In this document: positions 12,326-58,737 of the stretch, piece after piece
Numbering within the stretch: position 1 is the first letter of the stretch
Layout: every line of letters begins with the position of its first letter
Source of the DNA: a phage
Direction: 5' to 3' (one strand)
Length of the DNA stretch: 64,000 nt
Sequence record: PZ445551.1
Translations under genes and position numbers: made by a program
The notes under the pieces: model-generated
Seen by the model: only the letters and a program-made list of their open reading frames with translations
The model's database searches: none
What the model was told of the DNA's origin: nothing

Positions 12326-12336
12326 ATAACTCCTTG

Positions 12337-26311: not shown

Positions 26312-27472
26312 TTAGTAAGAACGACCACCAAACACATACTCTGTGTAGTTTTTACGTTCTTTGTTTTTAATAACAACTTCAATGTTGTTGCCTTTATCAT
26401 CGGTGAACACAAAGTGATAACCGTCACCACCCATTGTACGGATGTGTTTTTCATCATACGTCAGCAAGATACGGTCTACACCCCAGTAGTAGTCACCTTC
26501 TTCATCTTTGTCTTCTACTGTAACGACTCCTTCCATTTCAGGAAGATGCTCTTCTCCTGACTTATGATCTACAGCTACAACATAACGATTACCGCTAAAC
26601 AAACCTTGTGCTGTCATACCGTCAATATCGGTATCTGACGAAACATCTCCTGTACGATCTACACCGTTAACTTTCAGGAGTTTAACTTCTTTTGCAGCAT
26701 AGCGGTGTTCAGTGATACTGATACCCATTAATGCAAGTGCATCAGAGAATTTGTCATTAGGGTAACGGTTAAGTTCTTCTACTAATGACTGAACAATATC
26801 AAAGTTCAAGTCCACGGACAGATTATAAAGCGTTTCAAAATCTGGTAAAAAGGCTTTGTTCTCCAGATTTTTAGCCAGATAATCATCCATAGTAGCTTTA
26901 GGTAGTTTCTTATAGCTAAAACTGTAGAAAATACGGCTAGGACGATTACGCAAAAATTCTGATACATAACCATCATTTTTAGTCAATACAAACAGCTTGT
27001 CGTAGCCACCAACACCATCCAGCAGGGTAAGCAAACCATCTTGTGCATCTTTTTCAGCATACAGTTTATCAAATTCATCGATCATAATCATCACAGGTTG
27101 TGTGATTTTAGACATAAAATTGATAAAGCCTTCACCATTAAAAGCACTACCGATAGAAATAGTAGGAATACCCATTTCACGAAGAGCAGAAGACAGCATT
27201 TTAGCTTGCAAAGTTTTACCGCTACCTTTCGTACCCTCAAGGAGAACACCTGTGTTTTTACCTTTGCGGCTAAGGAACGTCTTGATAATACGTTCTGATT
27301 TATCATCAGTATCACCGTATGTTACTGAAGGGACTTCCATATCGTTTTTAGGATACAGGAAGAACTCACCACTTTGAGTAACACCTACACCAAAAGTTCC
27401 TGCTGGAATTTCTTCGATATCTGTACCAGACTTCTGACGCAGGAAGATTTGATTGCCGAATACTGTAAACAT
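26312..27472 (-). CDS. P-loop NTPase (AAA-like ATPase), paralog of 41452-42579
   Basis: Walker A GTKGSGKT, Walker B IMIDEFDK; long collinear similarity to the plus-strand paralog. Confidence 0.8.
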   Translation of the reverse strand: MFTVFGNQIFLRQKSGTDIEEIPAGTFGVGVTQSGEFFLYPKNDMEVPSVTYGDTDDKSERIIKTFLSRKGKNTGVLLEGTKGSGKTLQAKMLSSALREMGIPTISIGSAFNGEGFINFMSKITQPVMIMIDEFDKLYAEKDAQDGLLTLLDGVGGYDKLFVLTKNDGYVSEFLRNRPSRIFYSFSYKKLPKATMDDYLAKNLENKAFLPDFETLYNLSVDLNFDIVQSLVEELNRYPNDKFSDALALMGISITEHRYAAKEVKLLKVNGVDRTGDVSSDTDIDGMTAQGLFSGNRYVVAVDHKSGEEHLPEMEGVVTVEDKDEEGDYYWGVDRILLTYDEKHIRTMGGDGYHFVFTDDKGNNIEVVIKNKERKNYTEYVFGGRSY

Positions 27473-27492
27473 AGTTTTCTCCTCTATTTAAT

Positions 27493-27963
27493 TTAGTCAG
27501 ATTCCCAAATGTTGTCTTTCTTAACCCACATTCGTTGATTATCTGAACCTCTATAACGTTTCGTTGTTGGTTGATTCATATCATACTTACCATCTATCAC
27601 TATGTCAACCAGTTTTTTAATTTTTTCTGGAATTTCTTCAAAAAGATATCCTGTATATAAGACAATATCTTTTTTGTTTCCAAAACAATCTCTTACCTTT
27701 TCAAGAACATACTCTACAGTGTCAATGTTCTCTTTGTCAAGAGGTTCACCACCTAAAACTGTTAATCCTTTAATGAAAGGTCGAGATAAATCTTTCAAGA
27801 TAAGATCTAATGTTTCAGTAGTGAACTCTTGTCCGTAGTTATACGACCAGGCTTTCTGGTTAAAGCAGCCACGGCAACCGTGGCTACAACCGCTCACCCA
27901 CAAAGAGCATCTTACACCGTCACCGTTGAGCATGTCAACAGGTTCATATCCGGCGTAATTCAA
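27493..27963 (-). CDS. nrdG: Anaerobic ribonucleoside-triphosphate reductase activating protein (radical SAM)
   Basis: Cys cluster CSLWVSGCSHGCRGCFN; lies immediately downstream of nrdD with a 4-nt overlap. Confidence 0.85.
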   Translation of the reverse strand: MNYAGYEPVDMLNGDGVRCSLWVSGCSHGCRGCFNQKAWSYNYGQEFTTETLDLILKDLSRPFIKGLTVLGGEPLDKENIDTVEYVLEKVRDCFGNKKDIVLYTGYLFEEIPEKIKKLVDIVIDGKYDMNQPTTKRYRGSDNQRMWVKKDNIWESD

Positions 27964-29759
27964 AAATGTTTCTCCCTTTCTAATACTTCTTGCATTTTAC
28001 CTTTATTATAAGGGCGAGAGTTAGGGGCAGAAAGGTATCCTGACACTCTTCTGATCACAGATATGGATTCTTCTTCATGATTGCCACAACTTGGACACTC
28101 GAAGCCTTTAGCCGTTGCTTTAAATTCACCATGAAAACCACATTTGAAACACTGATCTACAGGTTGGTTCACACCAAAATAAGGAATTTTGTTGTAGGCA
28201 TAATCTACAAGAGTTTCCAGTGCTTGCAAGTTATTTTTAAGGTTTGGTGTTTCTACATAACCTATGTTCCCACCATTACTGATTTGTGCAAAACCTTCCT
28301 CATAATCCCACTTTTGGAACGGGGTAGTGTGCATCCATACAGGTTGATGGAAAGAGTTTGTCAAGTAGTCACGATCAATAGAACCAGGATAGCGATCATT
28401 TAATGCTTTGGCAAATTTATAGCACAAGGATTCTGCTGGTGTTCCATACAAACTAAAAGCTAAACCAGAACGTTCTTTAAATGTGCCACAGATATCCTTC
28501 ATATATTGAAGGATGTTTTTACCCATTGCTTTTGGATTGGTGTTACCTGGGTATAAAATCTCCATAGCTTCTGCTAAACCTACATAACCGATACTAATAG
28601 AGGCATAACCACCTTCGAATAGTTTACCAATCTCTTCATTAGCTTCTAGTCGAGCTAAAGCCCCTTCCATAAACAATGTAGGGTTTTGAGATGCTTTGGT
28701 ATGTCTAATACGGTTAACACGTAGCATATGTGCCTTATACGCCATCTCCATATGTTGTTCCAACAGTTCAGTAAATAAGATGCCCTTTTCACGGGACTCT
28801 GCTGCAATGATAGGTAAGTTTAAAGAAACTACGCCTAAGTTGAAACGACCATCATATTTTTCACCTTGCTCTGTTGCATAGTATGACAAGAAGCTACGGC
28901 AACCCATGCTTGTGACGCGACCATCTGAAGATCCTGTAACTTCTTTGTTTAAAGGTACAGAGATAAAATCAGGATAAATGCGTTCAGCACAACACTCCAT
29001 CGCCAGTTGCTTCAGATCATAATTTGGATCGCCAGCTTTCATGTTAACACCATCTTCCAAGAAGAAGATAACTTTAGGAAACACAGGAGTTACCCTATCT
29101 TTTCCTAATCCTTGTTTGTGCACCATTAGGTAGTTTTTAGTGATCATTCTACCAAAAGCAGAGGTATCCAAACCTAAACTAATTGTTATAAAAGGTGACT
29201 GACCATTTACACTCATTAGAGTGTTCACCTGGTAGATTAAAGTTTGCATTGCATCATAGACCTGTTTATCTACCATACGCATAGCAATATCATAATCGCC
29301 AACATCGGCATATATTTTATTAAAACTTGCTTTAACGTATTGACTAAGCCCAGTATCAACATGTGCACAAGTTTGTCCACCATATTGGCTAGAAGCTACT
29401 GCTTGAATAATTTGAGTTAGGACAGTAGTCGCCACACCGATAGATTTTGGTTTTTCAATATGTGCATTACCAATACGGAAACCGTTCTCAAGCATATCTT
29501 GGTAATTTACTAGGCAACAATTAGTTAAAGGTGAGAGTAAATAATCTAAATCGTGGATGTGACCATACCCACTTTTATGCCATTCTGCTAAATCTTCAGG
29601 TAAAATATGGGTCATTGCCATGTGCTTGCTTAGGATACCTGCTAGTAAATCTCGGTGAGTATTAACAATCATTGCAGGTTTGTTTGCATTTTCACGAGTA
29701 AATTCTTCGGATGTTTGTTCGAGGAATCCGATTACATCCTCATATAGTTTTTGGGTCAT
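27960..29759 (-). CDS. nrdD: Anaerobic ribonucleoside-triphosphate reductase (class III RNR)
   Basis: C-terminal glycyl-radical motif RVSGYL and Zn motif CFKCG...CPSCG; 599 aa. Confidence 0.9.
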   Translation of the reverse strand: MTQKLYEDVIGFLEQTSEEFTRENANKPAMIVNTHRDLLAGILSKHMAMTHILPEDLAEWHKSGYGHIHDLDYLLSPLTNCCLVNYQDMLENGFRIGNAHIEKPKSIGVATTVLTQIIQAVASSQYGGQTCAHVDTGLSQYVKASFNKIYADVGDYDIAMRMVDKQVYDAMQTLIYQVNTLMSVNGQSPFITISLGLDTSAFGRMITKNYLMVHKQGLGKDRVTPVFPKVIFFLEDGVNMKAGDPNYDLKQLAMECCAERIYPDFISVPLNKEVTGSSDGRVTSMGCRSFLSYYATEQGEKYDGRFNLGVVSLNLPIIAAESREKGILFTELLEQHMEMAYKAHMLRVNRIRHTKASQNPTLFMEGALARLEANEEIGKLFEGGYASISIGYVGLAEAMEILYPGNTNPKAMGKNILQYMKDICGTFKERSGLAFSLYGTPAESLCYKFAKALNDRYPGSIDRDYLTNSFHQPVWMHTTPFQKWDYEEGFAQISNGGNIGYVETPNLKNNLQALETLVDYAYNKIPYFGVNQPVDQCFKCGFHGEFKATAKGFECPSCGNHEEESISVIRRVSGYLSAPNSRPYNKGKMQEVLEREKHF

Positions 29760-29775
29760 TAATCCTCCGTGGAAA

Positions 29776-29803
29776 ATAAAAGCCAGCTTAATGCTGGCTT
29801 TAG
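29776..29803 (-). terminator. Intrinsic terminator (AAAGCCAGC-loop-GCTGGCTTT + UUUUAUUUU)
   Basis: Stem-loop and U-tract on the minus strand, immediately before the nrdD RBS. Confidence 0.55.
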
Positions 29804-29848
29804 GGTGGATCTTTATTTTAAATCTTTTTCGTAAGATTGTCCTTGATC

Positions 29849-30799
29849 TTAGTCAAGGTTTTTGGTAATACGTGTACAACCGTCAGAAGTCAAACCGTCA
29901 ACTTGAGTTTCCCAAGTGCCATGAATATTTCGGAACAATGTTGTTACACCTTTTGGTTCATTAATAATGATTGCCATAACAAGTTTAGGATCGATAACAG
30001 ACATAATCTTTTCCTCAATACCCTCTGTAATAACATTATTGCGCACAATATTAATTGCATCTTCTTGTACAGTAAGAACACTTACGTTCTTAAGAGTATA
30101 TACCTGCTGTGTAGTGTAAATGATACGAACATAACTTACAGAACGAGTAGGCACAGGTTTACGCGGTCGGCGAAAACGTGGTTTTGGTGAAGATTCAGTC
30201 TTACTTTCATTTTTTGAATAATACTCCTCAAACAGTTTAGTAAATGTTTTTACATCAACTACAAACCGATCTTTCCTATATGGAGAATTCTTATGTGCAC
30301 CATTAATACCACTGTTTTCATCGAAGAAAGTAATGTTTTCTTCAGTTGAATACATTAGATAATGATCTGCATTTTTCCAATGTGGTTGTGGACAACGAGG
30401 ATTACAAACGGAAAGCAGATAACTAATATCTTCTTCCGTGGCATCAGTATCCAGGAAACACGTATTATGCACAGTCAGTTGTACTTTTTCAGCCATATCT
30501 TTTTCTTTATCCTCTTTAGCAAGATATTCAGTACGAATAATCTCCAGAAAACCTTCAGGTGTTACTTCCATAAATTTATATTCAGGATGAAGCTCCATAT
30601 ATTCAAATCCACAACCATCTAATTGCTGTAGGAAGTTAGGGTAGAAGAACAAATCATTAACACTGTGAATCAGATCATTGATTTCTGCTTCAGTTGTGTA
30701 ACCAAAACTCTTGTGAATTGCTTCGTTAAGAATATGCAGGATACCCATCTCTTCTGCTGCTTTTTTAACTTCCAGTTTATTAGCGTAAAATGCAATCAT
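29849..30799 (-). CDS. Hypothetical protein
   Basis: 316-aa ORF. Confidence 0.6.
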   Translation of the reverse strand: MIAFYANKLEVKKAAEEMGILHILNEAIHKSFGYTTEAEINDLIHSVNDLFFYPNFLQQLDGCGFEYMELHPEYKFMEVTPEGFLEIIRTEYLAKEDKEKDMAEKVQLTVHNTCFLDTDATEEDISYLLSVCNPRCPQPHWKNADHYLMYSTEENITFFDENSGINGAHKNSPYRKDRFVVDVKTFTKLFEEYYSKNESKTESSPKPRFRRPRKPVPTRSVSYVRIIYTTQQVYTLKNVSVLTVQEDAINIVRNNVITEGIEEKIMSVIDPKLVMAIIINEPKGVTTLFRNIHGTWETQVDGLTSDGCTRITKNLD

Positions 30800-30816
30800 T
30801 ATGTTCTCCTTCTAAA

Positions 30817-31251
30817 TTAGTTTAAAATTTCTTTTGCAATGGTAGAAGCAAGTTTTCCATCATATTGATTCGGATACTCTGCTTTAAGGTGTTTCATCAT
30901 ATCTGGCATTTTCTTGCCTGTCAAGGCAAATTCTTCAGCAATAGCTCGAAGATCATCTTCAGATAGCATTTCTGGCAAATATTTTTCCAGAGTGGTGATA
31001 TCACGCATAGCTCGCTCACACTTGCTAATGGAGGCATTAACTTTCTTAAGCGAGTCTAGTTCCTCTTTAGCGTGTGCAATACCAATCTTAACAATGTTAA
31101 TCATAATATCGTCTTCTGATTTATTCAGATTTGCCTTTTGAGTACGAGCAAGGTCAAACTCACCAATAATATTAGTTAACAAAGCAAAAGCACCCTTATC
31201 GGTTGTACGTGCTAAGATACGATCTGCTTTCATTTGTGTCACAATAGACAT
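30817..31251 (-). CDS. Hypothetical protein
   Basis: 144-aa helical ORF. Confidence 0.55.
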   Translation of the reverse strand: MSIVTQMKADRILARTTDKGAFALLTNIIGEFDLARTQKANLNKSEDDIMINIVKIGIAHAKEELDSLKKVNASISKCERAMRDITTLEKYLPEMLSEDDLRAIAEEFALTGKKMPDMMKHLKAEYPNQYDGKLASTIAKEILN

Positions 31252-31263
31252 TCTATTCTCCTC

Positions 31264-31836
31264 TTATTTGCTAATGCTTTGAATCTTATTTACAACACGG
31301 TTTATTGCCAGTGAAGCCCTAGGCTCCGCAATACCTGTTGCATAGATATAAGGATGACCTTTTGGAGACTCCCTCATACCGAATGAACCTAATTCTAAAC
31401 CATATTCATCCTCTACGTCAACCCCAATATTAGTGGGTACTAAATATGTTTTAACTCCATAATAAGTAGAGAAGAAACAGCGCATAGAGTTAGCATACTC
31501 TTCAATTGTAGCATCAGGGTAGAACTCAATCAACTCCAATTTCAAGAAAATATTAAAATGGGTATCATCTAAATTTTCTTCTGTGCGGTAACATGGTGTT
31601 AGTGCCATATACGGATTACCTACTGCAAATTCAAAACCATCCTTCTCCATTTGCAGGAAAGATTGTTCTGCACTAGCTACATAGTATTTACCGTTAGGAT
31701 GCCCTAATGGGCGATCCTCTTTATTTTCTGGTAGTGTGTACGCCAGTATATCAGCATCCACGAGATATGGAACTTCCAACATTTGTGCAAACCGACCATA
31801 GTAATCAATAGCTTGAGCTATTACTGCAACATTCAT
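31264..31836 (-). CDS. Hypothetical protein
   Basis: 190-aa ORF. Confidence 0.55.
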   Translation of the reverse strand: MNVAVIAQAIDYYGRFAQMLEVPYLVDADILAYTLPENKEDRPLGHPNGKYYVASAEQSFLQMEKDGFEFAVGNPYMALTPCYRTEENLDDTHFNIFLKLELIEFYPDATIEEYANSMRCFFSTYYGVKTYLVPTNIGVDVEDEYGLELGSFGMRESPKGHPYIYATGIAEPRASLAINRVVNKIQSISK

Positions 31837-32084
31837 GATCGACCTCCATTGCGGAATGCACGTTTAGTAATGTTTGACATAGTGATCAAATCTTGAAGCG
31901 TCATACCAGGAAAATGCTGTTCAAGAACACCTTCAACAGCGCCTACAATATCTGATAACTCAATAAGTTGCATCAGCTTGCAATCTTGATCAATAGCATC
32001 TTGAAGTTCATAAAGCTCTTCTTGAATCTTAGCAACAGAACCATATTCCTCTTTGCTAATCTCCTTCAAATGATACCCTGCCAC
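31833..32084 (-). CDS. Possible MazG/HisE-like nucleotide pyrophosphohydrolase (small all-alpha)
   Basis: 83 aa with EExxE-like acidic helix (IQEELYELQDAI); weak assignment. Confidence 0.4.
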   Translation of the reverse strand: MAGYHLKEISKEEYGSVAKIQEELYELQDAIDQDCKLMQLIELSDIVGAVEGVLEQHFPGMTLQDLITMSNITKRAFRNGGRS

Positions 32085-32094
32085 TTTAACCCCC

Positions 32095-33831
32095 TTAGTT
32101 TACCAGTTTATTTATATCTGGTAAAAGATTTATTTCACCTAAGAAATCACCTTCACCTTCCTCTAGCCAACTCTCATATGCTTGTGCATGATTATAGTTA
32201 CCATCAAAAGAATCTGCAACAAATTTTTCTACAGTTTTTCGAGATGTGCCAGCACCAAATACACCAAGTTTAATACCATTGATCGGTAAAGTGGTACTTG
32301 TGGGTACTTTCTCTGTTGCAACACGGTTGATATCTATAATCTCCTGTACGGTTGTGTTCCATTGTAAGCATTTAACACAACGGGTATGCGCTACATACAG
32401 TAGGTTTCGCTCTGCCTCTTCCAGTCCTACCCATTCACCAGTCTTTTTATCATAGTTGGAAGGAAAATCATTAGCAACAATAACCTGATCCCACTCCAAA
32501 CCTTTAGACTTGTGTGCTGTAGTCAGTGTGACTTTTGCTGTAGGAGAATTTCTATGCGTTCTAAGTGTATGTGCTATAGTGTTTGCCTTACCAGAAACTA
32601 CGATGTTTAACAAGCGTTTAGCATCTGGATCAGCCTCTGCACACTCAACAAATTCATCCCAGTCTGCGTAAGGTAATACAGTTTCATGTTTTACTTTCTC
32701 AATATCTCCTCTACGAAGAGCATTAACACTATCTACCATAGAGATAAAATCCCTGGTATCTACGTTAATAATAATTTCTTCCCCATCTGCAATACGATCC
32801 ATTGCCTCCATAAGCAAGGTTAAATTCTTGCGAAAGATGATAGTGTAAGGTTTTGTATAGTCTACAACATCTGATTTGTAGCTACCTACTACAGTATCAA
32901 AGCCTTTACCAACCAAAGGGTGACGCAAAGGTTCTTTATCGCTTAAAATCATATTGGCAATGTTTGCCACTTTGGGGCCAAAACGGAAGCAAGCAGTTAA
33001 TGGAAGCTCTGCCCCATATGTAGATGTTTCCTTCATCATATTTTGGCTTCCACGGAACTGGTAGATGCTCTGATATTCGTCACCCACCACTACTACTTGT
33101 TTTGCAGATTTAGCATTTCGCAGAATAGACAAGAATGCAGGGTTAACATCCTGGAATTCATCACCAAAAATAATATCATAACCAAGATCAGCACCAGACA
33201 ATTCAAACAATTTTACATAGGTGTCATGCGTCATCAAAGTATCTGTGTTAGGATCGATGCGCTCTCGCCACAATTGTTTTGCATACTTAACTACTTCTGT
33301 AATTAGTTTGTGTTCGTTAATACCTTTTCTTTTAATATCTGCAAGATGTACACCAGGAAAATGTTTACGGCTGATAAAAGGATCATCCGAAAATTCAAAC
33401 TTACCTACGGTTTGTTTGATCATTAAACCAATCATAGCACGAGTTAACAGTGTTTTCCCTCGTTTATCAATAAGATTATTAATCTTAAATTTCTTTGCTA
33501 TTTCGCTACCTGTACCTGCAACGTTAACATACTGTCCTTCTGGTCGTGACAGTTTTGCACGTAAACGATGATCCAGGAATTGATAGCAAATAGAATGCAA
33601 TGTACGGCATTCTACATTTAGTGGCATCTTACGCCGTGCTTCTTCTGCCATGCTTTTATTGAAAGCTAAGTAAAGAATGCGATCTTCTGTACTGTTAGCC
33701 AGCAAATAAAGTGTTGACGTTTTGCCTGATCCAGATTTAGCTTGGATAGTTAAAAAGCGATGGTCTGGAAAAGCCTCCTTAATAGCTGTTTGCTCTTCTG
33801 TTGGAGTGAAGCTCAACTCTTTCTTAGCCAT
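32095..33831 (-). CDS. Superfamily-1 DNA helicase (UvrD/PcrA-like)
   Basis: Walker A AKSGSGKTST, motif TLHSICYQ, Walker B GDEFQD; start at ATG 33831 with SD AAGAGAGG. Confidence 0.75.
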   Translation of the reverse strand: MAKKELSFTPTEEQTAIKEAFPDHRFLTIQAKSGSGKTSTLYLLANSTEDRILYLAFNKSMAEEARRKMPLNVECRTLHSICYQFLDHRLRAKLSRPEGQYVNVAGTGSEIAKKFKINNLIDKRGKTLLTRAMIGLMIKQTVGKFEFSDDPFISRKHFPGVHLADIKRKGINEHKLITEVVKYAKQLWRERIDPNTDTLMTHDTYVKLFELSGADLGYDIIFGDEFQDVNPAFLSILRNAKSAKQVVVVGDEYQSIYQFRGSQNMMKETSTYGAELPLTACFRFGPKVANIANMILSDKEPLRHPLVGKGFDTVVGSYKSDVVDYTKPYTIIFRKNLTLLMEAMDRIADGEEIIINVDTRDFISMVDSVNALRRGDIEKVKHETVLPYADWDEFVECAEADPDAKRLLNIVVSGKANTIAHTLRTHRNSPTAKVTLTTAHKSKGLEWDQVIVANDFPSNYDKKTGEWVGLEEAERNLLYVAHTRCVKCLQWNTTVQEIIDINRVATEKVPTSTTLPINGIKLGVFGAGTSRKTVEKFVADSFDGNYNHAQAYESWLEEGEGDFLGEINLLPDINKLVN

Positions 33832-33832
33832 T

Positions 33833-34309: not shown

Positions 34310-34317
34310 ATTTCCCC

Positions 34318-34833: not shown

Positions 34834-34854
34834 TATATTTTCCTTATTGGTTTG

Positions 34855-35220
34855 TTAAACGTTTTCTAAATCTTTTAAGGCATTACCCAACGTTAGAACA
34901 ATAACATCGTTTGCTGCCTCTTCCCCATTGATATTGGTGAAATTTGGTGTGACAAAAGTAACCATATAAAACTCGTCCACCTGGAAGATAGCAATAACAC
35001 CATCCATCTTAACATCTTGACGAAAGGAAAAACCAATCATCTTCTCTTGCAAAGGCATATCCCCTTCCTTCATTACCGCTAGGGAGTTTTCAGGAATGTT
35101 ATATTTATCTGCTCCGATGTAGATGTACGTAATGTTATCTTTATCGTGATGATACAGGGTTGCTTTTTCCATATCTAAACCTGACAGATCAAATACGTTA
35201 ATTTCTTGTGTAGTCTTCAT
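34855..35220 (-). CDS. Hypothetical protein
   Basis: Start at ATG 35220 with SD GGAGG; longest ORF runs to 35295. Confidence 0.5.
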   Translation of the reverse strand: MKTTQEINVFDLSGLDMEKATLYHHDKDNITYIYIGADKYNIPENSLAVMKEGDMPLQEKMIGFSFRQDVKMDGVIAIFQVDEFYMVTFVTPNFTNINGEEAANDVIVLTLGNALKDLENV

Positions 35221-35584
35221 AAATATCCTCCCAAATCCAATAATCATCTGTGTAAGTAGGATGCCTTTTATCCCACTCTGTTCTAGCCCAAGCAACCGCT
35301 GCTACCAACACATCACCATGACAAGGTTGAGGTGAGCAGAAGCAAACTAAGTCTTTCCCTTCTAATTCTAACAAATCCTCAAGAGTGATTTTACCACAAC
35401 GAATTTGTTCCCACAACCACTCTTTATATCTTTGTATAGTTGATCCTCGTGGTTCATCATCCTTTAACTTAAAAGGATTTGCAAACTTTGAGGCTTTTAA
35501 CCCCATATGAGGCATAGCTCTGCCAATGTACACTGCACCTTCAGGTATTACTTTACCTAAGTGGTAAAAATTTAATACTTTCAT
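35198..35584 (-). CDS. Hypothetical protein with CxC...CHGD motif
   Basis: Start at ATG 35584 abutting the upstream stop; Cys/His cluster DLVCFCSPQPCHGD. Confidence 0.5.
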   Translation of the reverse strand: MKVLNFYHLGKVIPEGAVYIGRAMPHMGLKASKFANPFKLKDDEPRGSTIQRYKEWLWEQIRCGKITLEDLLELEGKDLVCFCSPQPCHGDVLVAAVAWARTEWDKRHPTYTDDYWIWEDIYEDYTRN

Positions 35585-35585
35585 A

Positions 35586-35936
35586 TTAACCCAAACACAT
35601 TTGTGCAATCAAGCCCTGTATAAATTTATTAGCTTCTTTACTGTCGTAGTCAGTCTCTTCTGGATATCCATCTTCATCGTACACAACTGTACCTTCAATA
35701 TACCCTGCCTCAATTAAGGCGCGGATCATATCAAATTGCCAGCATGAGTTACCAAATGGACGTTTACCATTAAAACACTCTTCTTCTCTCCATAACGTAG
35801 AGAGTAGTTGTCGGAAATATTCCCGTACAGTGACAGTACCAAGATCTGAATCCTCAAACATAACATCCAGGGCATCAGGATTGCTTTTCTCTACATAAGG
35901 GATATATTTAACACCATTAATAGTTACATCAAGCAT
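35586..35936 (-). CDS. Hypothetical protein
   Basis: 116-aa ORF. Confidence 0.55.
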   Translation of the reverse strand: MLDVTINGVKYIPYVEKSNPDALDVMFEDSDLGTVTVREYFRQLLSTLWREEECFNGKRPFGNSCWQFDMIRALIEAGYIEGTVVYDEDGYPEETDYDSKEANKFIQGLIAQMCLG

Positions 35937-36299: not shown

Positions 36300-36300
36300 T

Positions 36301-36783: not shown

Positions 36784-37051
36784 CTGATTGATCCTTTACA
36801 TTGTTCTTGGCATACACAGGAATAACATCATTGTGATCTTTATTACTTTCATCTGTTAAAGCCCAAAACAACTTACCTGCTGGATGTTTAAAGATGTAAG
36901 CAATAGGTTCCTCTTCCTGGGCTTCTTTGCTACGGATACCATCCCGCCAGGCAAGCCAAGTGTAGATCATCACTTCTTGACGTTCTTCTTCGTTAGGCCA
37001 CATATGTGGTGGAAAGTTTTTATCAAACCATTGCTTAAATTCTTCAGTCAT
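36770..37051 (-). CDS. Hypothetical protein
   Basis: 93-aa ORF; SD GGAG upstream. Confidence 0.55.
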   Translation of the reverse strand: MTEEFKQWFDKNFPPHMWPNEEERQEVMIYTWLAWRDGIRSKEAQEEEPIAYIFKHPAGKLFWALTDESNKDHNDVIPVYAKNNVKDQSDDNV

Positions 37052-37061
37052 AGTCTACTCC

Positions 37062-37226
37062 TTAGCGTACAAAGTTAACTTCTGCTTCTTTCAGCTTTGA
37101 CACTTCTACATAACCACCATGATCATCTTTAATCCATTCTTTTCCTTTACGGATGATAACAGGATATGTAGAGTGAGTAAGTTTAGGTACAGATCTTTTT
37201 GTTTTAGTGATAGAAATGTTTTGCAT
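37062..37226 (-). CDS. Small hypothetical protein (54 aa, below the ORF-track threshold)
   Basis: ATG at 37226 preceded by SD AAGGAG; stop at 37062; hand-translated. Confidence 0.4.
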   Translation of the reverse strand: MQNISITKTKRSVPKLTHSTYPVIIRKGKEWIKDDHGGYVEVSKLKEAEVNFVR

Positions 37227-37286
37227 AGTAGTCTCCTTAGTAAATTTTACATAGAGTCTAGATTATTTAGTAGATAGAGTCAATAA

Positions 37287-37553
37287 CTAATTACTGTTAG
37301 ATCTGTATTCTGTCTTCCATTCACAATGGTAAACTTCAACAGGTTCTAACTTCCAATGTTCAGGAACTAATTCAGGGCAATATCTACAAAAGAGAAATAG
37401 ATAGATAACTAAGACAGGTATTAAATAGTAAAATGGTATACGATCATAACCATACTTACGAGATAACATGTAGACATATAGATAGGGTATAACAATTAAT
37501 CCTATAACTATAAGTAAGAAGAGAAGTATAAACCTTAGTGTAGTAACATCCAT
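37287..37553 (-). CDS. Small membrane protein
   Basis: 88 aa with two hydrophobic helices. Confidence 0.5.
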   Translation of the reverse strand: MDVTTLRFILLFLLIVIGLIVIPYLYVYMLSRKYGYDRIPFYYLIPVLVIYLFLFCRYCPELVPEHWKLEPVEVYHCEWKTEYRSNSN

Positions 37554-37717
37554 AGTATTCTCCTATACAGTAATATACTCTGTTCCTGCCCCTCCATGAG
37601 TGACAGGAACAATATCTATAGAGAATACTAACTCGCTTCGCTCGTCACCTTTCAGGTTTAGGGTAGCATGTTTTTCTGAAAAAGTCAATACTCTCCACAA
37701 AACTTTACAAAATACTT

Positions 37718-37990
37718 TTACATAGGTACAACAGAGTCTGTTTTGAAGTCGTACATATGATTTACACCTGTGATTTTTGACATAGAGATTGCACGTTTAG
37801 CACCTGCAATTACCTGGTCTGTCTTCTTAATCTCTTTACGGAACTTACGTACAGTTAAAGAGAAGAAACGATGATCCATCCATTGACGATTCACACGATC
37901 ACGCTTGAAGTGACGGAAATCTTCAATCTGTTTATTGCGCAATCGGCGCAGTACATGCAATAGTTGATAGTAAGGGTGTTTATTTTTCAT
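37718..37990 (-). CDS. Hypothetical basic protein
   Basis: 90-aa Arg/Lys-rich ORF. Confidence 0.5.
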   Translation of the reverse strand: MKNKHPYYQLLHVLRRLRNKQIEDFRHFKRDRVNRQWMDHRFFSLTVRKFRKEIKKTDQVIAGAKRAISMSKITGVNHMYDFKTDSVVPM

Positions 37991-37993
37991 AAT

Positions 37994-38422
37994 TTATTCT
38001 CCAAATCGAAAATCGTCAATATCATCAAACCATACACAATGGCGAGTCCTTTCTTTTTCTGTTGCAGACATTGTTTCAACAGCTTTAGGACTAAGTACAA
38101 CAGGAATGTAACGAACAGGTCGTTCATAATAGTAGCCATACTTTTCTGTATTAGCTGCCTCAAAGACTTTACGGCGTTCTTCAAGATCTTCTATGGTGAA
38201 TCCTACCATATAACCATCATGTTTGCTACCCCATCCTTCCTCACTTTCAACAATCGGGATATAAAAGCCGTTACGCGTCCCTGACGCTGGTTCTTCTTGA
38301 GCCTGAAGGCAAGCCTCCCATCCTGCTTTAAAGACGTTATAGAGCGATTTACGCACGTTATGAGTGCCGCTTTCGCTTGCTGGATAGAGTTCATTAAACT
38401 TGTCTTGGATTTGTTGTGTCAT
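37994..38422 (-). CDS. Hypothetical protein
   Basis: 142-aa ORF. Confidence 0.55.
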   Translation of the reverse strand: MTQQIQDKFNELYPASESGTHNVRKSLYNVFKAGWEACLQAQEEPASGTRNGFYIPIVESEEGWGSKHDGYMVGFTIEDLEERRKVFEAANTEKYGYYYERPVRYIPVVLSPKAVETMSATEKERTRHCVWFDDIDDFRFGE

Positions 38423-38565
38423 ACTCGCCCCTTAGTGATTATTTGACCAGCTAAACAAATAGCTTGTAGTACAATAAAGAAGTAGCCTAATTTTACACTA
38501 CCCAATACCCAGAATGCAATGTTTGCAAACAAACAAAAAGCAATATTAAGTCTAAAGAATAACAT

Positions 38566-38766
38566 TTAATCCCCTTCATATTTAGGTAAAGGCATATATG
38601 CCACAATGGGAGGGTAATCAAAGTGAAAATGATGGTTCACCACAATAATCTTACCAGACATACTTTTATGCACTTCACAATACCCTTTTCCACCATCTTC
38701 CATTACCACCACATACTCACCTAGTGGGATATCGTATGGGTCTTCTACTTTCACCCATTCTGTCAT
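38566..38766 (-). CDS. Hypothetical small protein
   Basis: Start at ATG 38766 (MTEWVKV) with SD GAGGAG and an ATGA overlap to the upstream small ORF. Confidence 0.5.
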   Translation of the reverse strand: MTEWVKVEDPYDIPLGEYVVVMEDGGKGYCEVHKSMSGKIIVVNHHFHFDYPPIVAYMPLPKYEGD

Positions 38767-38918
38767 TTTGTAAACTCCTCGTAGTAAGGTAAAGCCTTGA
38801 TTAGTTGTTCTGAAGTGCCATTTTGCACCCACGTAACACCATTGTCAACAGAAACATACCCTTTTTTGTCAATAAATTTACGCAGACAGCCAGTGAACTT
38901 ATTTTTGTAGATAGCCAT
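38763..38918 (-). CDS. Small hypothetical protein (51 aa, below the ORF-track threshold)
   Basis: ATG at 38918 preceded by SD AAGGAG; hand-translated; stop overlaps the next start. Confidence 0.45.
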   Translation of the reverse strand: MAIYKNKFTGCLRKFIDKKGYVSVDNGVTWVQNGTSEQLIKALPYYEEFTK

Positions 38919-38930
38919 GTTTACTCCTTG

Positions 38931-39284
38931 TTACATCCACAGATTATGAAAATACTTAGCAAACAAAATACGACCTTCTAAACGATCTTGCCGCTGTTTT
39001 TCATTAACTTCTTCTGGTGGAGTTGAGTCCTTAAAAGAAGACTCCATTTTTTCAAGAATTTCTAACCAGTGTTCTGCTGCTCGTTCTTCCATATAAGGTA
39101 GATAGTCACCTTTAGCGTGTGGGTACATCCGACGAAGTAACCCACTAGGAATTTTAACATTGTTTGTGGCTATCACTTTTGCACGATACGCAGAAAGTGC
39201 ATTGTAGATCAGTTTACTTAGTGTCACATCCAGATCAAGAAGATCACTCTCTTCAAATTGAATTTCATCGTGTACAATTTTCAT
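38931..39284 (-). CDS. Hypothetical protein
   Basis: 117-aa ORF; 4-nt overlap with the upstream gene. Confidence 0.55.
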   Translation of the reverse strand: MKIVHDEIQFEESDLLDLDVTLSKLIYNALSAYRAKVIATNNVKIPSGLLRRMYPHAKGDYLPYMEERAAEHWLEILEKMESSFKDSTPPEEVNEKQRQDRLEGRILFAKYFHNLWM

Positions 39285-39568
39285 CGTGCCTTCTCCCGAT
39301 CTGCATCTAATTTCAACAAGAAAGCTGTATACTCTTCCGAACCTTGGTGTAAAAACATGTGATAAGAGCTTACCAGTTTCTTCGTTGTTGTATAACGTTC
39401 CATTTCCCCAACAACACCTCCACCTAGTGTGTAGAGCACAATACCTTCAACTCCAACATAGGTTACTACTTCAACCAAGTCTGTGTTATCCCAATAGTAG
39501 TTAGGTGACACAATAAGATCGCCCACTGCCAGTTTAATGTTTGCTACTTCGTCTTGTGAATAATACAT
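39281..39568 (-). CDS. Hypothetical protein
   Basis: 95-aa ORF. Confidence 0.55.
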   Translation of the reverse strand: MYYSQDEVANIKLAVGDLIVSPNYYWDNTDLVEVVTYVGVEGIVLYTLGGGVVGEMERYTTTKKLVSSYHMFLHQGSEEYTAFLLKLDADREKAR

Positions 39569-39580
39569 TTGGTTCTCCTC

Positions 39581-39871
39581 TCACATTAAGACACGTTTTG
39601 TGTTGATGGGTGCATTATCAAACATGTTTATCACTTTGTCAAGTTTGTGTATTAACTCGTTCGTAATGTTCCACTCTTTGTATGATCTCCATTGTTTCTT
39701 ATTCTCACCTACCTGGTGTAAAACTTTGATTGGTGCATTCAAACGTACATTGCGTTCTTTGTCCTCTTCAAAAGAGGCTAACCATTTTTCGTTATGTCCA
39801 TGAACAGCAATAATAATGCCAAAACCATCAAAAGTTTCTGTAATATTCTTAGTTGCTAGTGTGATGTTCAT
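39581..39871 (-). CDS. Hypothetical protein (first gene of the minus-strand block)
   Basis: 96-aa ORF adjacent to the divergent intergenic region. Confidence 0.55.
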   Translation of the reverse strand: MNITLATKNITETFDGFGIIIAVHGHNEKWLASFEEDKERNVRLNAPIKVLHQVGENKKQWRSYKEWNITNELIHKLDKVINMFDNAPINTKRVLM

Positions 39872-39990
39872 ATCTAACCTCTTTTGTTACGATACACACA
39901 GAGTACCAGAAATTAATTTCAGATCAAGTATTGACATACTGTTTTATTGTGCTAATCTTAATGCATACACAAATGAGAGGAGATAAACGA
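39872..39990. promoter_or_regulatory. Divergent intergenic control region (strand switch; TTGACA -35-like box for the plus-strand block)
   Basis: Genes to the left are all minus-strand, genes to the right all plus-strand; TTGACA about 50 nt upstream of the 39991 start. Confidence 0.4.
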
Positions 39991-40542
39991 ATGCAAAACA
40001 CCGATCTGACTTGGATAGAAGCCAAAGAAGCAATGTTAAAAGGCAAACGCGTTAAACATAAATACTTTTGCGAAGGAGAATGGTTTGAAATGCGTAACCG
40101 ATCCCTTGTAGATGAAAAAGGGAATGACATGCAACAATGGTTCAAAAATGAAATTTGGCAGGGAACAGGTTGGTCTGTAGTTGAAGAGCAGCCTAGCTCA
40201 AGCGCACTGTTTAGCCCTATTATGTATCGCGTTATCGGTGCTTTAGTTGTTGATCACAGGATTGCAGTGGAAAAAGAATGCTGGGAAGAGGTATCTTTTT
40301 TCAACCTGGCTTCTTATGCAAAAAGCCATATGCACTTGTTTGAAGAAGGGGATGAATTTGTTCTTCGTATGCGCTATGGCAAAGAATTCAGATTATCACT
40401 TGATAATGATGTAGACACTGTTGTAAAATGGTTAGCAGAGCATTACGCTTACGATGCAATTTGTGGTCGCAGCTTCGGCAACGAACGCTGGGACATGATT
40501 TGTGAAAAATATGATTTTGAGCCGGAGTACGGAGTTTTATAA
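39991..40542 (+). CDS. Hypothetical protein
   Basis: Start at ATG 39991 with SD GAGAGGAG; longest ORF from 39931 lacks an RBS. Confidence 0.6.
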   Translation: MQNTDLTWIEAKEAMLKGKRVKHKYFCEGEWFEMRNRSLVDEKGNDMQQWFKNEIWQGTGWSVVEEQPSSSALFSPIMYRVIGALVVDHRIAVEKECWEEVSFFNLASYAKSHMHLFEEGDEFVLRMRYGKEFRLSLDNDVDTVVKWLAEHYAYDAICGRSFGNERWDMICEKYDFEPEYGVL

Positions 40543-40793
40543 TGTTAAGTATCAAACCTAAAATGATAACAGAAGACGAAGCAGACTTTATTTTCAAATG
40601 TGGACGTGTATGGAGAGAATTCACAAAAGGAAATGAAGTGGTGGTTGTTGTTGAACACAAGATATCTATTCAGGATCTGTTTGGACAATATGTTGATGTT
40701 ATTAAATTAGGTATTGACAAGGGTTTAGTTGAGGTGTTAACATTAGATCAAGTTGAAGCAGAGCACCTCAATAAAGTAGTGGTTGAATTTTAA
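40542..40793 (+). CDS. Hypothetical protein
   Basis: 83-aa ORF, translationally coupled to its neighbour. Confidence 0.55.
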   Translation: MLSIKPKMITEDEADFIFKCGRVWREFTKGNEVVVVVEHKISIQDLFGQYVDVIKLGIDKGLVEVLTLDQVEAEHLNKVVVEF

Positions 40794-40813
40794 AATACAG
40801 ACGGGAGAAAGGT

Positions 40814-40987
40814 ATGAGTTTCTTTGTTACAGTATTTATGGCTATCTGGATTGTAGTCTCACTCGTTCTTTTCCTGGTGGGTTGTCTGGAAGAGATTAAG
40901 AAAGCGGTTATTTGCGGTTTCTTTGGCTTTATTATCTCTCCTGCCTGGATGTGGTTCTTCATTATTATTGGTTTCCTTAAAAGGTAA
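40814..40987 (+). CDS. Small membrane protein (57 aa, below the ORF-track threshold)
   Basis: ATG 40814 after GGGAGAAAGG; two hydrophobic segments; hand-translated. Confidence 0.45.
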   Translation: MSFFVTVFMAIWIVVSLVLFLVGCLEEIKKAVICGFFGFIISPAWMWFFIIIGFLKR

Positions 40988-41001
40988 GTGAGGAATAAAG
41001 A

Positions 41002-41439
41002 ATGAGTAAAACAAACGCAATCGCAGATAAAGCAACTGATGTACTTCTGAACATGGTTAACGTCACTATTCAAACAATGAGTGATGTTGTAGAGTTTGGA
41101 AAACAACAAATTCCAGAAGTAATTCATCAATTATTAGTGTGGAAAGCAGTATCCGCAGGTTTATGGCAACTTTTTAGTATTTGCTTTATGTTTATTACTT
41201 TTATTGCTGTGCGGAACCTCGTAAAAGCAATTAAAGATAAAGAATGCCTGTGGTCACGAGATCGCTATGGTGAAGTATCTGCTTTACCTATTGTTGGCCT
41301 TGTTGTCTGTGCTTTCTTTTTCTTTTTAGGATTTGTTATTTTCTTTTCGAATTTTGATTGGCTAAAAATCATTATTGCACCAAAAGTGTATCTGATTGAA
41401 TTTGCTGCTGATTTAATTCGTTCATCTCAACAAAAATAA
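41002..41439 (+). CDS. Membrane protein
   Basis: 145 aa with several hydrophobic helices. Confidence 0.6.
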   Translation: MSKTNAIADKATDVLLNMVNVTIQTMSDVVEFGKQQIPEVIHQLLVWKAVSAGLWQLFSICFMFITFIAVRNLVKAIKDKECLWSRDRYGEVSALPIVGLVVCAFFFFLGFVIFFSNFDWLKIIIAPKVYLIEFAADLIRSSQQK

Positions 41440-41451
41440 AAGGGGTTTAAA

Positions 41452-42579
41452 ATGAAATACACGATTTATGGTGATATTGTAAGTGTAAATAAAGATATGG
41501 GCGTGGAATCTAACTATCTTCCACCAGGATTCTATACTGTTAGTCGTGATCCCCTTGGCAATTATTTTTTAAGCCGTGGTAATCTGACAGGTGTACCGGA
41601 TGTTTTGTATGGTGAAACAGAAAAACGAGCAAATCACGTTATCCGTACATTCCATCGCCGGAGTGCACAAGGTAAAAACACAGGCTTGCTTCTGACAGGA
41701 ACTAAGGGCAGTGGTAAAACTATGTTAGCCAAACTCATTAGTCGTGACCTTGTAGAAGAAGGTATTCCAACTATTATGGTTACTCAAGCCTATAGTGATG
41801 CTAATTTCATTGAACTTATTAGCAAGATCACCGACAAAGCAGTGATTATTTTTGACGAGTTTGATAAAGTATATGAGAAGAAACAAGATCAAGAAGCACT
41901 TCTCACTTTGTTAGATGGTACTGGCAGTGGTAATAAACTGTTTATTCTGACTAAAAACAGTGGTTTTATCTCTGAATTCTTTTTAAATCGTCCTAGTCGT
42001 GTGTTTTATAATTTTAATTATGATAAAATCTCACTAGAAACTATGATTGACTATTTAGATAAAAACCTGGATAACAAAGCACACTTTGATAATTTCCAAA
42101 GACTTTGGGATGTAAGTTTAGAGTTGTCCTTTGATGTGATCCAAGGTATAGTAGAAGAACTTAATTTCTACCCTGATTTATCCTTTAAAGAATGTATCTC
42201 TATGATGGGCGTTTCTTTAGGTGGTGGTAATAAATGGGATATCAGCAGTGTTGTTATTAATGGGAAACTTCAGAAAGTTAGCTGGGTATCTAGTTGGCAT
42301 AACTTTACACCTGCAATCTTTTTAGGTGGCTCGTGCACACTAGACGTGTACTTGTCATCTCCAAGTGATGCAGACTCTAAAGAAGCCCTTGCTAATAGCT
42401 CTTACGTGGTTTTTGATGATGAAGGAGATGCTCGAATTCCATTGAATGCGACAAAAATGAAAGCAGATCTTATTACAGGCGGTAAAATCGTTGTGTTTAG
42501 TGATGATCCAGAAGATTCTTTCCGTATTGTTCTGGAACCAACTATCACCAATGGTGCAACTTTGGCAAGTGTGTTTTAA
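41452..42579 (+). CDS. P-loop NTPase (AAA-like ATPase), paralog of 26312-27472
   Basis: Walker A GTKGSGKT, Walker B IIFDEFDK; collinear with the minus-strand paralog over about 250 residues. Confidence 0.8.
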   Translation: MKYTIYGDIVSVNKDMGVESNYLPPGFYTVSRDPLGNYFLSRGNLTGVPDVLYGETEKRANHVIRTFHRRSAQGKNTGLLLTGTKGSGKTMLAKLISRDLVEEGIPTIMVTQAYSDANFIELISKITDKAVIIFDEFDKVYEKKQDQEALLTLLDGTGSGNKLFILTKNSGFISEFFLNRPSRVFYNFNYDKISLETMIDYLDKNLDNKAHFDNFQRLWDVSLELSFDVIQGIVEELNFYPDLSFKECISMMGVSLGGGNKWDISSVVINGKLQKVSWVSSWHNFTPAIFLGGSCTLDVYLSSPSDADSKEALANSSYVVFDDEGDARIPLNATKMKADLITGGKIVVFSDDPEDSFRIVLEPTITNGATLASVF

Positions 42580-57692: not shown

Positions 57693-57693
57693 A

Positions 57694-58736: not shown

Positions 58737-58737
58737 C

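What the first reader, a model, noticed from the sequence alone, without database searches (positions are those of the whole stretch)
26312..42579. Two paralogous P-loop ATPases on opposite strands in different modules (26312-27472 and 41452-42579)
The two ~380-residue proteins align over most of their length, including an N-terminal ~80-residue domain, Walker A GTKGSGKT and Walker B (I/M)IDEFDK, but their C-terminal ~120 residues have diverged. One sits beside nrdDG in the minus-strand replication block; the other is in the plus-strand operon with the NADAR and zinc-ribbon proteins. Duplication followed by C-terminal divergence suggests the same ATPase engine serving two targets.
Basis: seen in the sequence. 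Interest (0 to 1): 0.6.

Follow-up and report, generated by a model that had tools for sequence, protein, structure and literature searches.

The report
Two diverged phage AAA+ ATPase paralogs
This E. coli phage (phi92 group) carries two old, well-conserved copies of a widespread but unstudied phage AAA+ ATPase that share a motor but differ in their end domains; the pairing is real, but their function is still only inferred.

Summary
ORFs 26312-27472(-) (386 aa) and 41452-42579(+) (375 aa) are true paralogs: 39% identity, E=1e-81. Similarity goes well beyond the P-loop: the N-domain alone gives E=8e-13 and the lid alone 6e-23. The window is Escherichia phage VivaForever; the genes correspond to phi92 gp190 and gp221, already annotated "ATPase".

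Both belong to PHROG 2376, a very large phage family (3,222 50%-identity clusters) with no characterised member that I found. They share one architecture: a small N-terminal beta domain, a classical-clade AAA+ core with a shortened pore loop 1, a lid, and an acidic, fast-evolving C-terminal beta domain. The closest solved folds are Bcs1 and YjoB.

Copy 2 is found throughout Stephanstirmvirinae. Copy 1 is an extra copy in Justusliebigvirus and a few relatives, and its position next to nrdDG is not conserved. Both copies are under strong purifying selection, and each is followed by a terminator hairpin.

C-terminal divergence is a property of the whole family, and the C-domains remain homologous. 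The most likely function is an ATP-driven, ring-forming protein remodeller whose client specificity lies in the end domains, with each paralog serving different clients. This is inferred, not shown. Family members recurrently sit beside NAD+-salvage and Macro genes, which is a lead only. Interest is modest.

The parts
26312..27472 (-). Copy 1: AAA+ ATPase, 386 aa (= VivaForever CDS0241, phi92 gp190). N-terminal beta domain ~27323-27472; AAA core plus lid ~26723-27322; acidic C-terminal beta domain 26315-26722.
   Evidence: ORF. PHROG 2376 over full length, E=2e-104. PF00004 at 29.4 bits against a 21.2 cut-off. AF2 pLDDT 85.6. Annotation. pN/pS 0.04.
41452..42579 (+). Copy 2: AAA+ ATPase, 375 aa (= CDS0209, phi92 gp221). 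N-domain ~41452-41610; AAA core plus lid ~41611-42210; C-domain 42211-42576. This copy is shared across Stephanstirmvirinae.
   Evidence: ORF. PHROG 2376, E=7e-108. PF00004 at 38.9 bits. AF2 pLDDT 83.9. Ortholog in ESCO5 at 64.5% identity in the same context. 0 nonsynonymous out of 20-23 differences.
26284..26305 (-). Terminator-like hairpin AAAGGAGGC-GAAA-GCCTCCTTT with a T-rich tail, 6 nt after the copy 1 stop codon.
   Evidence: Scan, sequence, annotated as a terminator in phage Paula.
42595..42616 (+). Terminator-like hairpin AAAACCCGC-TCCG-GCGGGTTTT, 15 nt after the copy 2 stop codon. It separates copy 2 from the CapR/T5orf172 and NADAR genes.
   Evidence: Scan, sequence, annotated as terminators 021/022 in phage Paula.
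41002..41439 (+). Context: a 145-aa protein with two predicted transmembrane segments (phrog_3054), 12 nt upstream of copy 2. It is conserved upstream of copy 2 in the Klebsiella phage but not in ESCO5, so it may be a lineage-specific partner.
   Evidence: max KD19 = 2.97; 41% identity to the Klebsiella homolog.
42654..43826 (+). Context, not part of the system: a protein with 3 CapR domains plus T5orf172, homing-endonuclease-like, probably a mobile insert.
   Evidence: Pfam. pS of 0.004 against 0.07-0.10 in the flanking genes. Absent at this slot in the Klebsiella phage.
43827..44378 (+). Context: NADAR-domain protein downstream of copy 2.
   Evidence: PF08719, E=2.5e-36.
27493..29759 (-). 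Context: nrdD (27960-29759) and nrdG (27493-27963) upstream of copy 1. A terminator-like hairpin at 29779-29801 lies upstream of nrdD, so nrdD, nrdG and copy 1 lie between two hairpins in this phage.
   Evidence: Adjacency is not conserved.

Best explanation
The two genes are anciently diverged paralogs of one phage-specific family (PHROG 2376) of classical-clade AAA+ ATPases. Each most likely assembles into its own ATP-driven ring that remodels or chaperones folded protein clients rather than threading polypeptides. On this view the conserved core supplies ATP hydrolysis, and the small N-terminal beta domain and the acidic, fast-evolving C-terminal beta domain supply client or partner specificity. 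Because those domains differ between the copies (30% and 17% identity), the paralogs would act on different clients.

Shown: paralogy, family membership, intact catalytic motifs, shared architecture, purifying selection on both copies, and autonomy of copy 2 (single-copy relatives exist).

Inferred: ring formation, protein rather than nucleic-acid clients, a chamber-type rather than threading mechanism, and different clients for the two copies.
For: Paralogy: E=1e-81, extending beyond the P-loop.

Family: full-length PHROG 2376 matches; 3,222 clusters at E<=1e-30.

Classical AAA signature: PF00004 is above its gathering score for both copies. The family profile hits p97/Cdc48/NVL/Rix7/Pex1 at up to 3e-12, with no clamp loader or initiator among the 60 listed hits. 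Invariant residues are Walker A GxxGxGK, Walker B DE, sensor-1 N166 and R177-P-x-R180, the last at the spacing I recall for RPGR in FtsH. There is no sensor-2 Arg at the 'SFDV' position.

Pore loop: the segment between Walker A and Walker B is about 7 residues shorter than in Cdc48 D2. The best phmmer hit, aligned without gaps here, is a p97 chain that lacks MWFGE in this alignment. Bcs1 likewise lacks the substrate-contacting pore loop and moves a folded protein (PMC7994207). YjoB is a chamber chaperone with a negatively charged chamber (PMC9565160).

End domains: C-domains are acidic in 95% of 241 homologs, which argues against DNA binding. Both AF2 models show the same four-part architecture. 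The end domains are the variable parts in every lineage.

Selection and autonomy: pN/pS is 0.04 and 0. Phapecoctavirus has only copy 2.
Confidence: 0.5

Rival explanations
1. Counter-defence remodeller linked to NAD+/ADP-ribose conflict. On this view the ATPase helps the phage resist NAD+-depleting or ADP-ribosylating host defences, for example by dismantling oligomeric effectors or chaperoning the phage's NAD+/ADPr enzymes, and the two paralogs cover different host systems.
For: In 73 diverse IMG/VR loci, NAMPT lies upstream on the same strand in 10, with a gap of only 74-95 bp in five. NMNAT-Nudix is present in 8 and a Macro-like gene in 17. After dereplication at 80% identity this is 8, 6 and 12 of 46 ATPase clusters. 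NAMPT plus NMNAT is the anti-defence pathway NARP2, found in ~1.1% of phage genomes (10.1101/2024.02.11.579819). In this window a Macro-domain protein lies ~2 kb downstream of copy 1 and NADAR follows copy 2. A copy 1 relative sits near a PARP gene. Phage SeKF_80 has a PRPS-like plus NAMPT-like gene pair ~3 kb from its ATPase. The fast-evolving end domains fit an arms race.
Against: All the NAMPT-linked loci fall in one clade of ATPases (51-100% identical to each other; single-linkage cluster at 55%). This may be inherited synteny within regions of auxiliary early genes. Most loci (34 of 46 clusters) have no such neighbour. Terminators separate both window copies from the Macro and NADAR genes. 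There is no PADLOC or anti-defence model hit. No functional data exist.
Confidence: 0.15
2. DNA-replication accessory factor (helicase-loader, clamp-loader or initiator-like AAA+), with copy 1 serving the replication block.
Against: The family profile prefers classical AAA proteins (3e-12) and lists no loader or initiator among the 60 listed hits. There is no sensor-2 Arg, no room for an initiator-specific insert between alpha2 and beta3 in the models, and no SRC motif. The end domains are acidic. In other phages the gene sits among small early or auxiliary genes, not in replication modules. Copy 2 is in such a region.
Confidence: 0.12
3. The two paralogs co-assemble into one hetero-oligomeric ring, as Pex1/Pex6 or the Rpt subunits do, rather than serving two separate targets.
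For: The motor and its inter-subunit residues (Arg fingers) are conserved in both copies. Both copies co-occur in all 55 Justusliebigvirus records.
Against: Copy 2 works alone in Phapecoctavirus and most other phages (one copy per genome). The genes lie 14 kb apart on opposite strands in separate transcription units.
Confidence: 0.08
4. Largely redundant copies: copy 1 is a horizontally acquired second copy with the same job, kept for dosage or timing, and the end-domain differences are drift.
For: Copy 1 is an accessory gene in a variable slot. The tree cannot exclude horizontal acquisition (59% bootstrap).
Against: Both copies are under strong purifying selection, including their distinct end domains. 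Copy 1 orthologs persist down to 57% identity in a conserved helicase-to-Ter block.
Confidence: 0.1

Closest known systems
Bcs1 (mitochondrial AAA translocase of folded Rieske protein) and B. subtilis YjoB (chamber chaperone)
   Different: Walker B is DE here, not the ED typical of Bcs1/YjoB (PMC9565160). The N-domain is ~50 aa with five beta strands, versus ~160 aa. There is no TM anchor. The phage proteins have an extra C-terminal beta domain. TM-score is only ~0.45 and identity 16-18%.
Classical AAA unfoldases (FtsH, p97/Cdc48 D2, proteasomal Rpt/PAN/Mpa)
   Same: PF00004 is above threshold. The family profile reaches E=3e-12 to p97/Cdc48. Shared motifs include LLxxLDG, sensor-1 N, RPxR and the xFD lid motif.
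   Different: The beta2-alpha2 (pore loop 1) segment is shortened and has no Ar-phi-Gly motif. There is no HExxH protease domain and no TM segment, so the GenBank labels 'Zn metalloprotease' and 'FtsH-like protease' are not supported. The N- and C-domains are unrelated.
PHROG 2376 'ATPase' (phi92 gp190/gp221; homologs in GAP32/CBB jumbo phages, Grimontviridae, Bastille-like Herelleviridae, Lactococcus 949-like phages and crAss-like phages)
   Same: Both window proteins are full-length members. BFVD hits share the full-length architecture (TM 0.6-0.72).
   Different: Nothing differs; this is the family itself. I found no experimentally characterised member.
Clamp loaders and DnaC/Hda-type AAA+ proteins
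   Different: There is no SRC motif, no sensor-2 Arg and no initiator-specific insert. The flanking domains are acidic. Profile searches favour classical AAA proteins.

Membership tests
PHROG 2376 (phage ATPase) | Full-length match to the family HMM | tested here: met
   Copy 1 matches residues 1-376 to profile positions 2-359 of 363, E=2.3e-104. Copy 2 matches residues 1-367 to positions 1-357, E=6.6e-108.
Classical AAA clade (Pfam PF00004) | Score above the Pfam gathering threshold | tested here: met
   29.4 and 38.9 bits against a cut-off of 21.2.
Classical AAA clade (Pfam PF00004) | Walker A GxxGxGK[ST], Walker B hhhhDE, sensor-1 Asn, and a second region of homology with two Arg | tested here: met
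   Invariant G80, G83, G85, K86, D132, E133, N166, R177, P178 and R180 across 42 homologs. The alignment to p97 D2 runs through 'rpsr' against 'RPGR'.
Classical AAA clade (Pfam PF00004) | Canonical pore loop 1 (aromatic-hydrophobic-Gly) after a short helix following beta2 | tested here: not met
   The segment is shorter than in Cdc48 D2, and the only gapless alignment is to a p97 chain that lacks MWFGE. The models show only a ~6-residue loop between beta2 and alpha2. One conserved aromatic residue remains.
Bcs1/YjoB subfamily | ED instead of DE in Walker B (PMC9565160) | tested here: not met
   IDEFD in copy 1 and FDEFD in copy 2, with D132 and E133 invariant.
Bcs1/YjoB subfamily | Bcs1-type N-terminal domain of ~160 aa (plus a TM helix in Bcs1) | tested here: not met
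   The N-domain is ~50 aa with five short strands. Max KD19 is 1.0, so no TM segment. Structural alignments cover ~250 columns, i.e. the AAA core plus lid.
FtsH-like ATP-dependent Zn metalloprotease (GenBank label) | M41 peptidase domain with HExxH, and N-terminal TM helices | tested here: not met
   No HExxH in either protein and no hydrophobic segment. No peptidase Pfam hit.
Clamp-loader clade | SRC Arg-finger motif and sensor-2 Arg (GDxR) in the lid | tested here: not met
   The motif is RPSR, not SRC. The lid consensus SFDV(I)Q has no Arg. This motif comparison relies on my recollection of the RFC sequence.
Initiator/helicase-loader clade (DnaA/DnaC/IstB/Hda) | Initiator-specific helical insert between alpha2 and beta3, and scores reaching family cut-offs | tested here: not met
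   NCBIfam scores are 16-30 bits against cut-offs of 189-215. In the models alpha2 (114-121) leads straight into beta3 (127-131).
Ring-forming AAA+ motor | Oligomerisation into a hexamer or heptamer with trans-acting Arg fingers | not testable with these tools
   Only monomer models could be made. The Arg residues are conserved.
Known anti-phage defence or anti-defence proteins (PADLOC) | Significant HMM match | tested here: not met
   Only marginal P-loop hits, E>=8.5e-4.

The most novel reading that the evidence does not exclude
PHROG 2376 ATPases are a major, unrecognised class of phage counter-defence machines. On this reading they are Bcs1/YjoB-like chamber remodellers whose hypervariable acidic C-domains capture and disable host immune effectors, notably NAD+-depleting or ADP-ribosylating systems. 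That would explain their recurrent position directly downstream of NARP2 (NAMPT/NMNAT) and Macro genes. phi92-like phages would keep two paralogs to neutralise two different host systems.
Probability: 0.1. Interest if true: 0.75.

Novelty: new variant of a known kind. Interest (0 to 1): 0.33.

Why it matters
The family has more than 3,000 clusters at 50% identity and occurs in large virulent phages of Gram-negative and Gram-positive hosts, in crAss-like phages and in jumbo phages. I found no characterised member. phi92-like phages are cultivable E. coli phages that carry two diverged copies under strong selection. This makes them a ready system for deletions and domain swaps to find out what the family does and which domains set specificity. 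If the NAD+/ADP-ribose link holds, it would add an energy-driven component to phage counter-defence. As it stands, the finding is a correct but unsurprising paralog pair, already annotated as ATPases.

Tried and rejected
(1) Pfam searches of the isolated N- and C-domains at E<=10 gave only noise (Nup188 SH3-like at 0.04, PTEN2 C2 at 0.056).

(3) I looked for a universal neighbouring partner gene across 73 loci and found none. The upstream 2-TM protein is conserved only within part of the copy 2 clade.

(4) Segmental duplication is rejected: no flanking genes are duplicated.

(5) The 'Zn metalloprotease' and 'FtsH-like protease' labels are rejected.

(6) A functional link between copy 1 and nrdDG is rejected as non-conserved, and likewise between copy 2 and the CapR/T5orf172 gene.

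(7) Literature searches for phi92, Justusliebigvirus and phage AAA+ unfoldases found no functional study.

(8) A phmmer hit of copy 2 residues 201-291 to the influenza NS1 effector domain (E=8e-4) is treated as chance.

(9) The sigma70-like promoter scans were not enriched over shuffled sequence. An 11/12 match at 27608-27580(-), inside nrdG and upstream of copy 1, is unverified.

(10) No tRNA was found under copy 1, despite a 'hypothetical tRNA' note in the phi92 record.
Full report
**Identity of the window.** The region is 100% identical to Escherichia phage VivaForever (PP925843.1) and 98-99% identical to phi92, Paula, inny and other Justusliebigvirus phages of the Stephanstirmvirinae. The two ORFs are CDS0241 and CDS0209, both annotated 'ATPase'. 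They correspond to phi92 gp190 and gp221, labelled 'putative ATPase or Zn metalloprotease'.

**Check of the observation.** ORFs 26312-27472(-) (386 aa) and 41452-42579(+) (375 aa) exist as stated. BLASTP gives 39% identity over 375 columns, E=1e-81.
- Identity by region is 30% (N-domain, residues 1-70), 57% (AAA core), 51% (second region of homology plus lid) and 17% (C-terminal ~130 residues).
- The similarity is not limited to P-loop motifs. The N-domain alone gives E=8e-13 (z=18 against shuffles) and the lid alone gives E=6e-23.
- The C-domains alone are not significantly similar pairwise (E=0.028).
- Only the ATPase gene is duplicated, not its neighbours.

**Protein anatomy.** Both proteins match PHROG 2376 'ATPase' end to end (E=2e-104 and 7e-108). 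Both pass the Pfam AAA (PF00004) threshold. AlphaFold2 models (pLDDT 85.6 and 83.9) show the same four parts: a five-stranded N-terminal beta domain (~1-45), the AAA alpha/beta core, a helical lid (~190-250) and a beta-rich C-terminal domain (~260-370).

Residues invariant across 42 homologs include the following:
- Walker A GxxGxGK
- Walker B DE
- an LL..LDG-type motif
- sensor-1 N166
- R177-P-x-R180

From my recollection of FtsH, the RPxR motif has the same spacing from sensor 1 as the classical RPGR. The alignment to p97 D2 runs through it. There is no sensor-2 arginine, no HExxH and no transmembrane segment. The 'Zn metalloprotease' and 'FtsH-like protease' labels are therefore not supported.

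The segment between beta2 and alpha2, where classical unfoldases carry pore loop 1, is shortened. The only gapless alignment is to a p97 chain that lacks MWFGE at this point. Bcs1, the best structural match, also lacks the substrate-contacting pore loop and moves a folded protein (PMC7994207). YjoB is a chamber-type chaperone (PMC9565160). Unlike Bcs1 and YjoB, the phage proteins have a DE rather than ED Walker B and a much smaller N-domain. I therefore use Bcs1/YjoB as a working analogy, not as a family assignment.

**The C-terminal domain.** C-domain profiles of copy 1 orthologs and copy 2 orthologs match each other only weakly (E=1.2e-4). Both match an intermediate 368-aa group well (1e-8 and 7e-7) over their full length.

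Fast C-domain evolution is also a property of the whole family. Copy 1 against its Klebsiella-phage ortholog is 86/91/91/49% identical across the four regions. Copy 2 against a 49%-identical relative is 45/63/66/29%. Many of the 150 best database representatives match the profile only to about position 275. The C-domains are acidic in 95% of 241 homologs, with a median net charge of -8. This argues against nucleic-acid binding by that domain.

**Evolution.**
- tblastn finds two copies per genome in all Justusliebigvirus records and in Klebsiella phage phi1_175008. It finds one copy in Phapecoctavirus (ESCO5, phAPEC8 and others) and in every other phage group listed except one Lactobacillus phage record, SAC12B, with two places.
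- The single Phapecoctavirus copy is the ortholog of copy 2: 64.5% identity and the same context of ATPase followed by a CapR/T5orf172 gene.
- At the copy 1 position ESCO5 has nrdG, a 63-aa ORF, a 201-aa ORF and then the HAD hydrolase, with no ATPase. Copy 2 is therefore the copy shared across the subfamily, and copy 1 is an additional copy.
- Copy 1 orthologs reach down to 57% identity in metagenomes, in the same block running from the UvrD-like helicase through YqeY to TerC/TelA.
- The nrdDG genes are absent from that block in locus L009 and in the Klebsiella phage. The nrdDG adjacency is therefore specific to this lineage.
- A neighbour-joining tree on the conserved 250 residues groups the copy 1 clade with the 368-aa group (64% bootstrap). 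It joins that pair to the copy 2 clade (59%), with the jumbo-phage clade outside (85%). This fits an old duplication within the lineage but cannot exclude horizontal acquisition.
- Both copies are strongly constrained. Against Paula and inny, pN/pS is 0.04-0.05 for copy 1. For copy 2 it is 0, with 0 nonsynonymous changes out of 20-23 differences. These values are comparable to nrdD.

**Transcription context.** Each gene is followed within 6-15 nt by a strong terminator-like hairpin: 26284-26305(-) and 42595-42616(+). These are annotated as terminators in phage Paula. Copy 2 is therefore probably not co-transcribed tightly with the 'zinc-ribbon' and NADAR genes.

The zinc-ribbon gene encodes three CapR domains plus T5orf172, which is the architecture of homing-endonuclease relatives (PMC8096241). 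Its synonymous divergence is about 20-fold lower than that of its neighbours, and it is absent from this slot in the Klebsiella phage. It is most likely a mobile insert.

The gene 12 nt upstream of copy 2 encodes a protein with two transmembrane segments (phrog_3054). It is conserved upstream of copy 2 in the Klebsiella phage but not in ESCO5.

**Search for partners and function.**
- The family is very large: 7,158 representatives at E<=1e-3 and 3,222 at E<=1e-30 among 50%-identity clusters.
- I fetched 80 IMG/VR loci, called ORFs and clustered the neighbours. No universal partner emerged.
- One association recurs. NAMPT lies upstream on the same strand in 10 loci, with a gap of only 74-95 bp in five of them.
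- An NMNAT-Nudix gene is present in 8 loci. A Macro-like gene, clustering with the window's Macro-domain protein at 23689-24522, is present in 17 loci.
- After dereplicating the ATPases at 80% identity, this is 8, 6 and 12 of 46 clusters.
- NAMPT plus NMNAT is NARP2, a demonstrated counter-measure to NAD+-depleting defences that occurs in ~1.1% of phage genomes (10.1101/2024.02.11.579819).
- In this window copy 1 lies ~2 kb upstream of the Macro protein and copy 2 precedes NADAR. A copy 1 relative sits near a PARP gene.
- The NAMPT-linked loci all belong to one ATPase clade (51-100% mutual identity), so the association may be inherited synteny. I treat it as a lead only.

**Best explanation and rivals.** The best-supported reading is as follows. 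Both genes encode autonomous, catalytically competent, ring-forming classical-clade AAA+ remodellers. Their conserved motor is coupled to variable N- and C-terminal client-recognition domains. The two paralogs act on different clients.
- Shown: paralogy, family and clade features, intact motifs, shared architecture, selection on both copies, and autonomy of copy 2.
- Inferred: oligomerisation, protein clients, a chamber-type mechanism, and distinct clients.
- Rivals: a counter-defence role tied to NAD+/ADP-ribose metabolism (a specialisation of the main model), a replication-loader role, a hetero-oligomer of the two copies, and simple redundancy.

**Novelty and interest.** The genes are already annotated as ATPases and belong to a catalogued PHROG. 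The paralogy is easy to find, and no unusual mechanism has been demonstrated. What is of some value:
- The family is very large and I found no characterised member.
- It has a distinctive architecture with no solved homolog beyond the AAA core.
- phi92-like phages offer a tractable two-paralog system for working out its function.

I rate interest at 0.33.

Noticed in passing
window 42654-43826 (+): The gene encoding 3 CapR domains plus T5orf172 has pS of only 0.004 against phages Paula and inny, while the flanking ATPase and NADAR genes have pS of 0.07-0.10. It is absent from this slot in Klebsiella phage phi1_175008. It looks like a recently spreading homing-endonuclease-type mobile gene.
   Followed up: partly
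window 23689-25922 (-) and the genes beyond, per L001: A Ter-type 'nucleoside-like metabolite' module lies downstream of copy 1. It contains a HAD hydrolase (25248-25922), a ComF-like PRTase_3 (24398-25255), a 'phosphatase' carrying a Macro domain (23689-24522), and then a membrane protein (its ESCO5 counterpart is annotated TerC) and a 'tellurite resistance' protein further on.
   Followed up: partly
window 23689-24522 (-), 35198-35608 (-), 43827-44378 (+): Three ADP-ribose-related domains lie within 21 kb: Macro, DUF4326 and NADAR. A relative (L009, 14792-16105) carries a PARP-domain gene in the equivalent block.
   Followed up: no
IMG/VR loci L032, L052, L054, L065, L068, L075, L079, L086, L093: A recurrent gene string, NMNAT-Nudix, Macro-like, NAMPT, (107-aa ORF), PHROG 2376 ATPase, GDSL-like hydrolase, 165-aa ORF, occurs in environmental phages. 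This places the ATPase directly downstream of the NARP2 NAD+ reconstitution genes.
   Followed up: partly
window 57276-61992 (+): Four paralogous ORFs of ~120-190 aa (57276-57692, 57833-58207, 60130-60498, 61408-61992) are 30-47% identical to one another.
   Followed up: no
window 11381-13350 (-): Two adjacent paralogous ORFs (11381-12325 and 12337-13350) are 41% identical over 324 aa, E=3e-81.
   Followed up: no
window 29849-30799 (-): A 316-aa protein annotated 'ribonucleotide reductase' (phrog_15930) has no Pfam hit. Its homologs sit just upstream of copy 1-type ATPases in the Klebsiella phage and in metagenomic loci L008 and L009, so the label looks doubtful and the linkage may be meaningful.
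   Followed up: partly
window 27580-27938 (-), inside nrdG: Three sigma70-like sites with a perfect TTGACA -35 box lie within the 471-bp nrdG gene, just upstream of copy 1. The best is 27608-27580 (11/12 matches). Overall promoter-like counts are not above the shuffled expectation.
   Followed up: no
copy 2 residues 201-291 (window ~42052-42324): phmmer gives a borderline hit (E=8e-4) to the influenza A NS1 effector domain (PDB 2rhk). This is probably chance.
   Followed up: no
GenBank records MG065639, MG065656 and others: Several records labelled 'Campylobacter phage' (A150, C3, A145, A110a, B15) are 99% identical to these E. coli Justusliebigvirus or Phapecoctavirus genomes, so the host labels look doubtful.
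   Followed up: no
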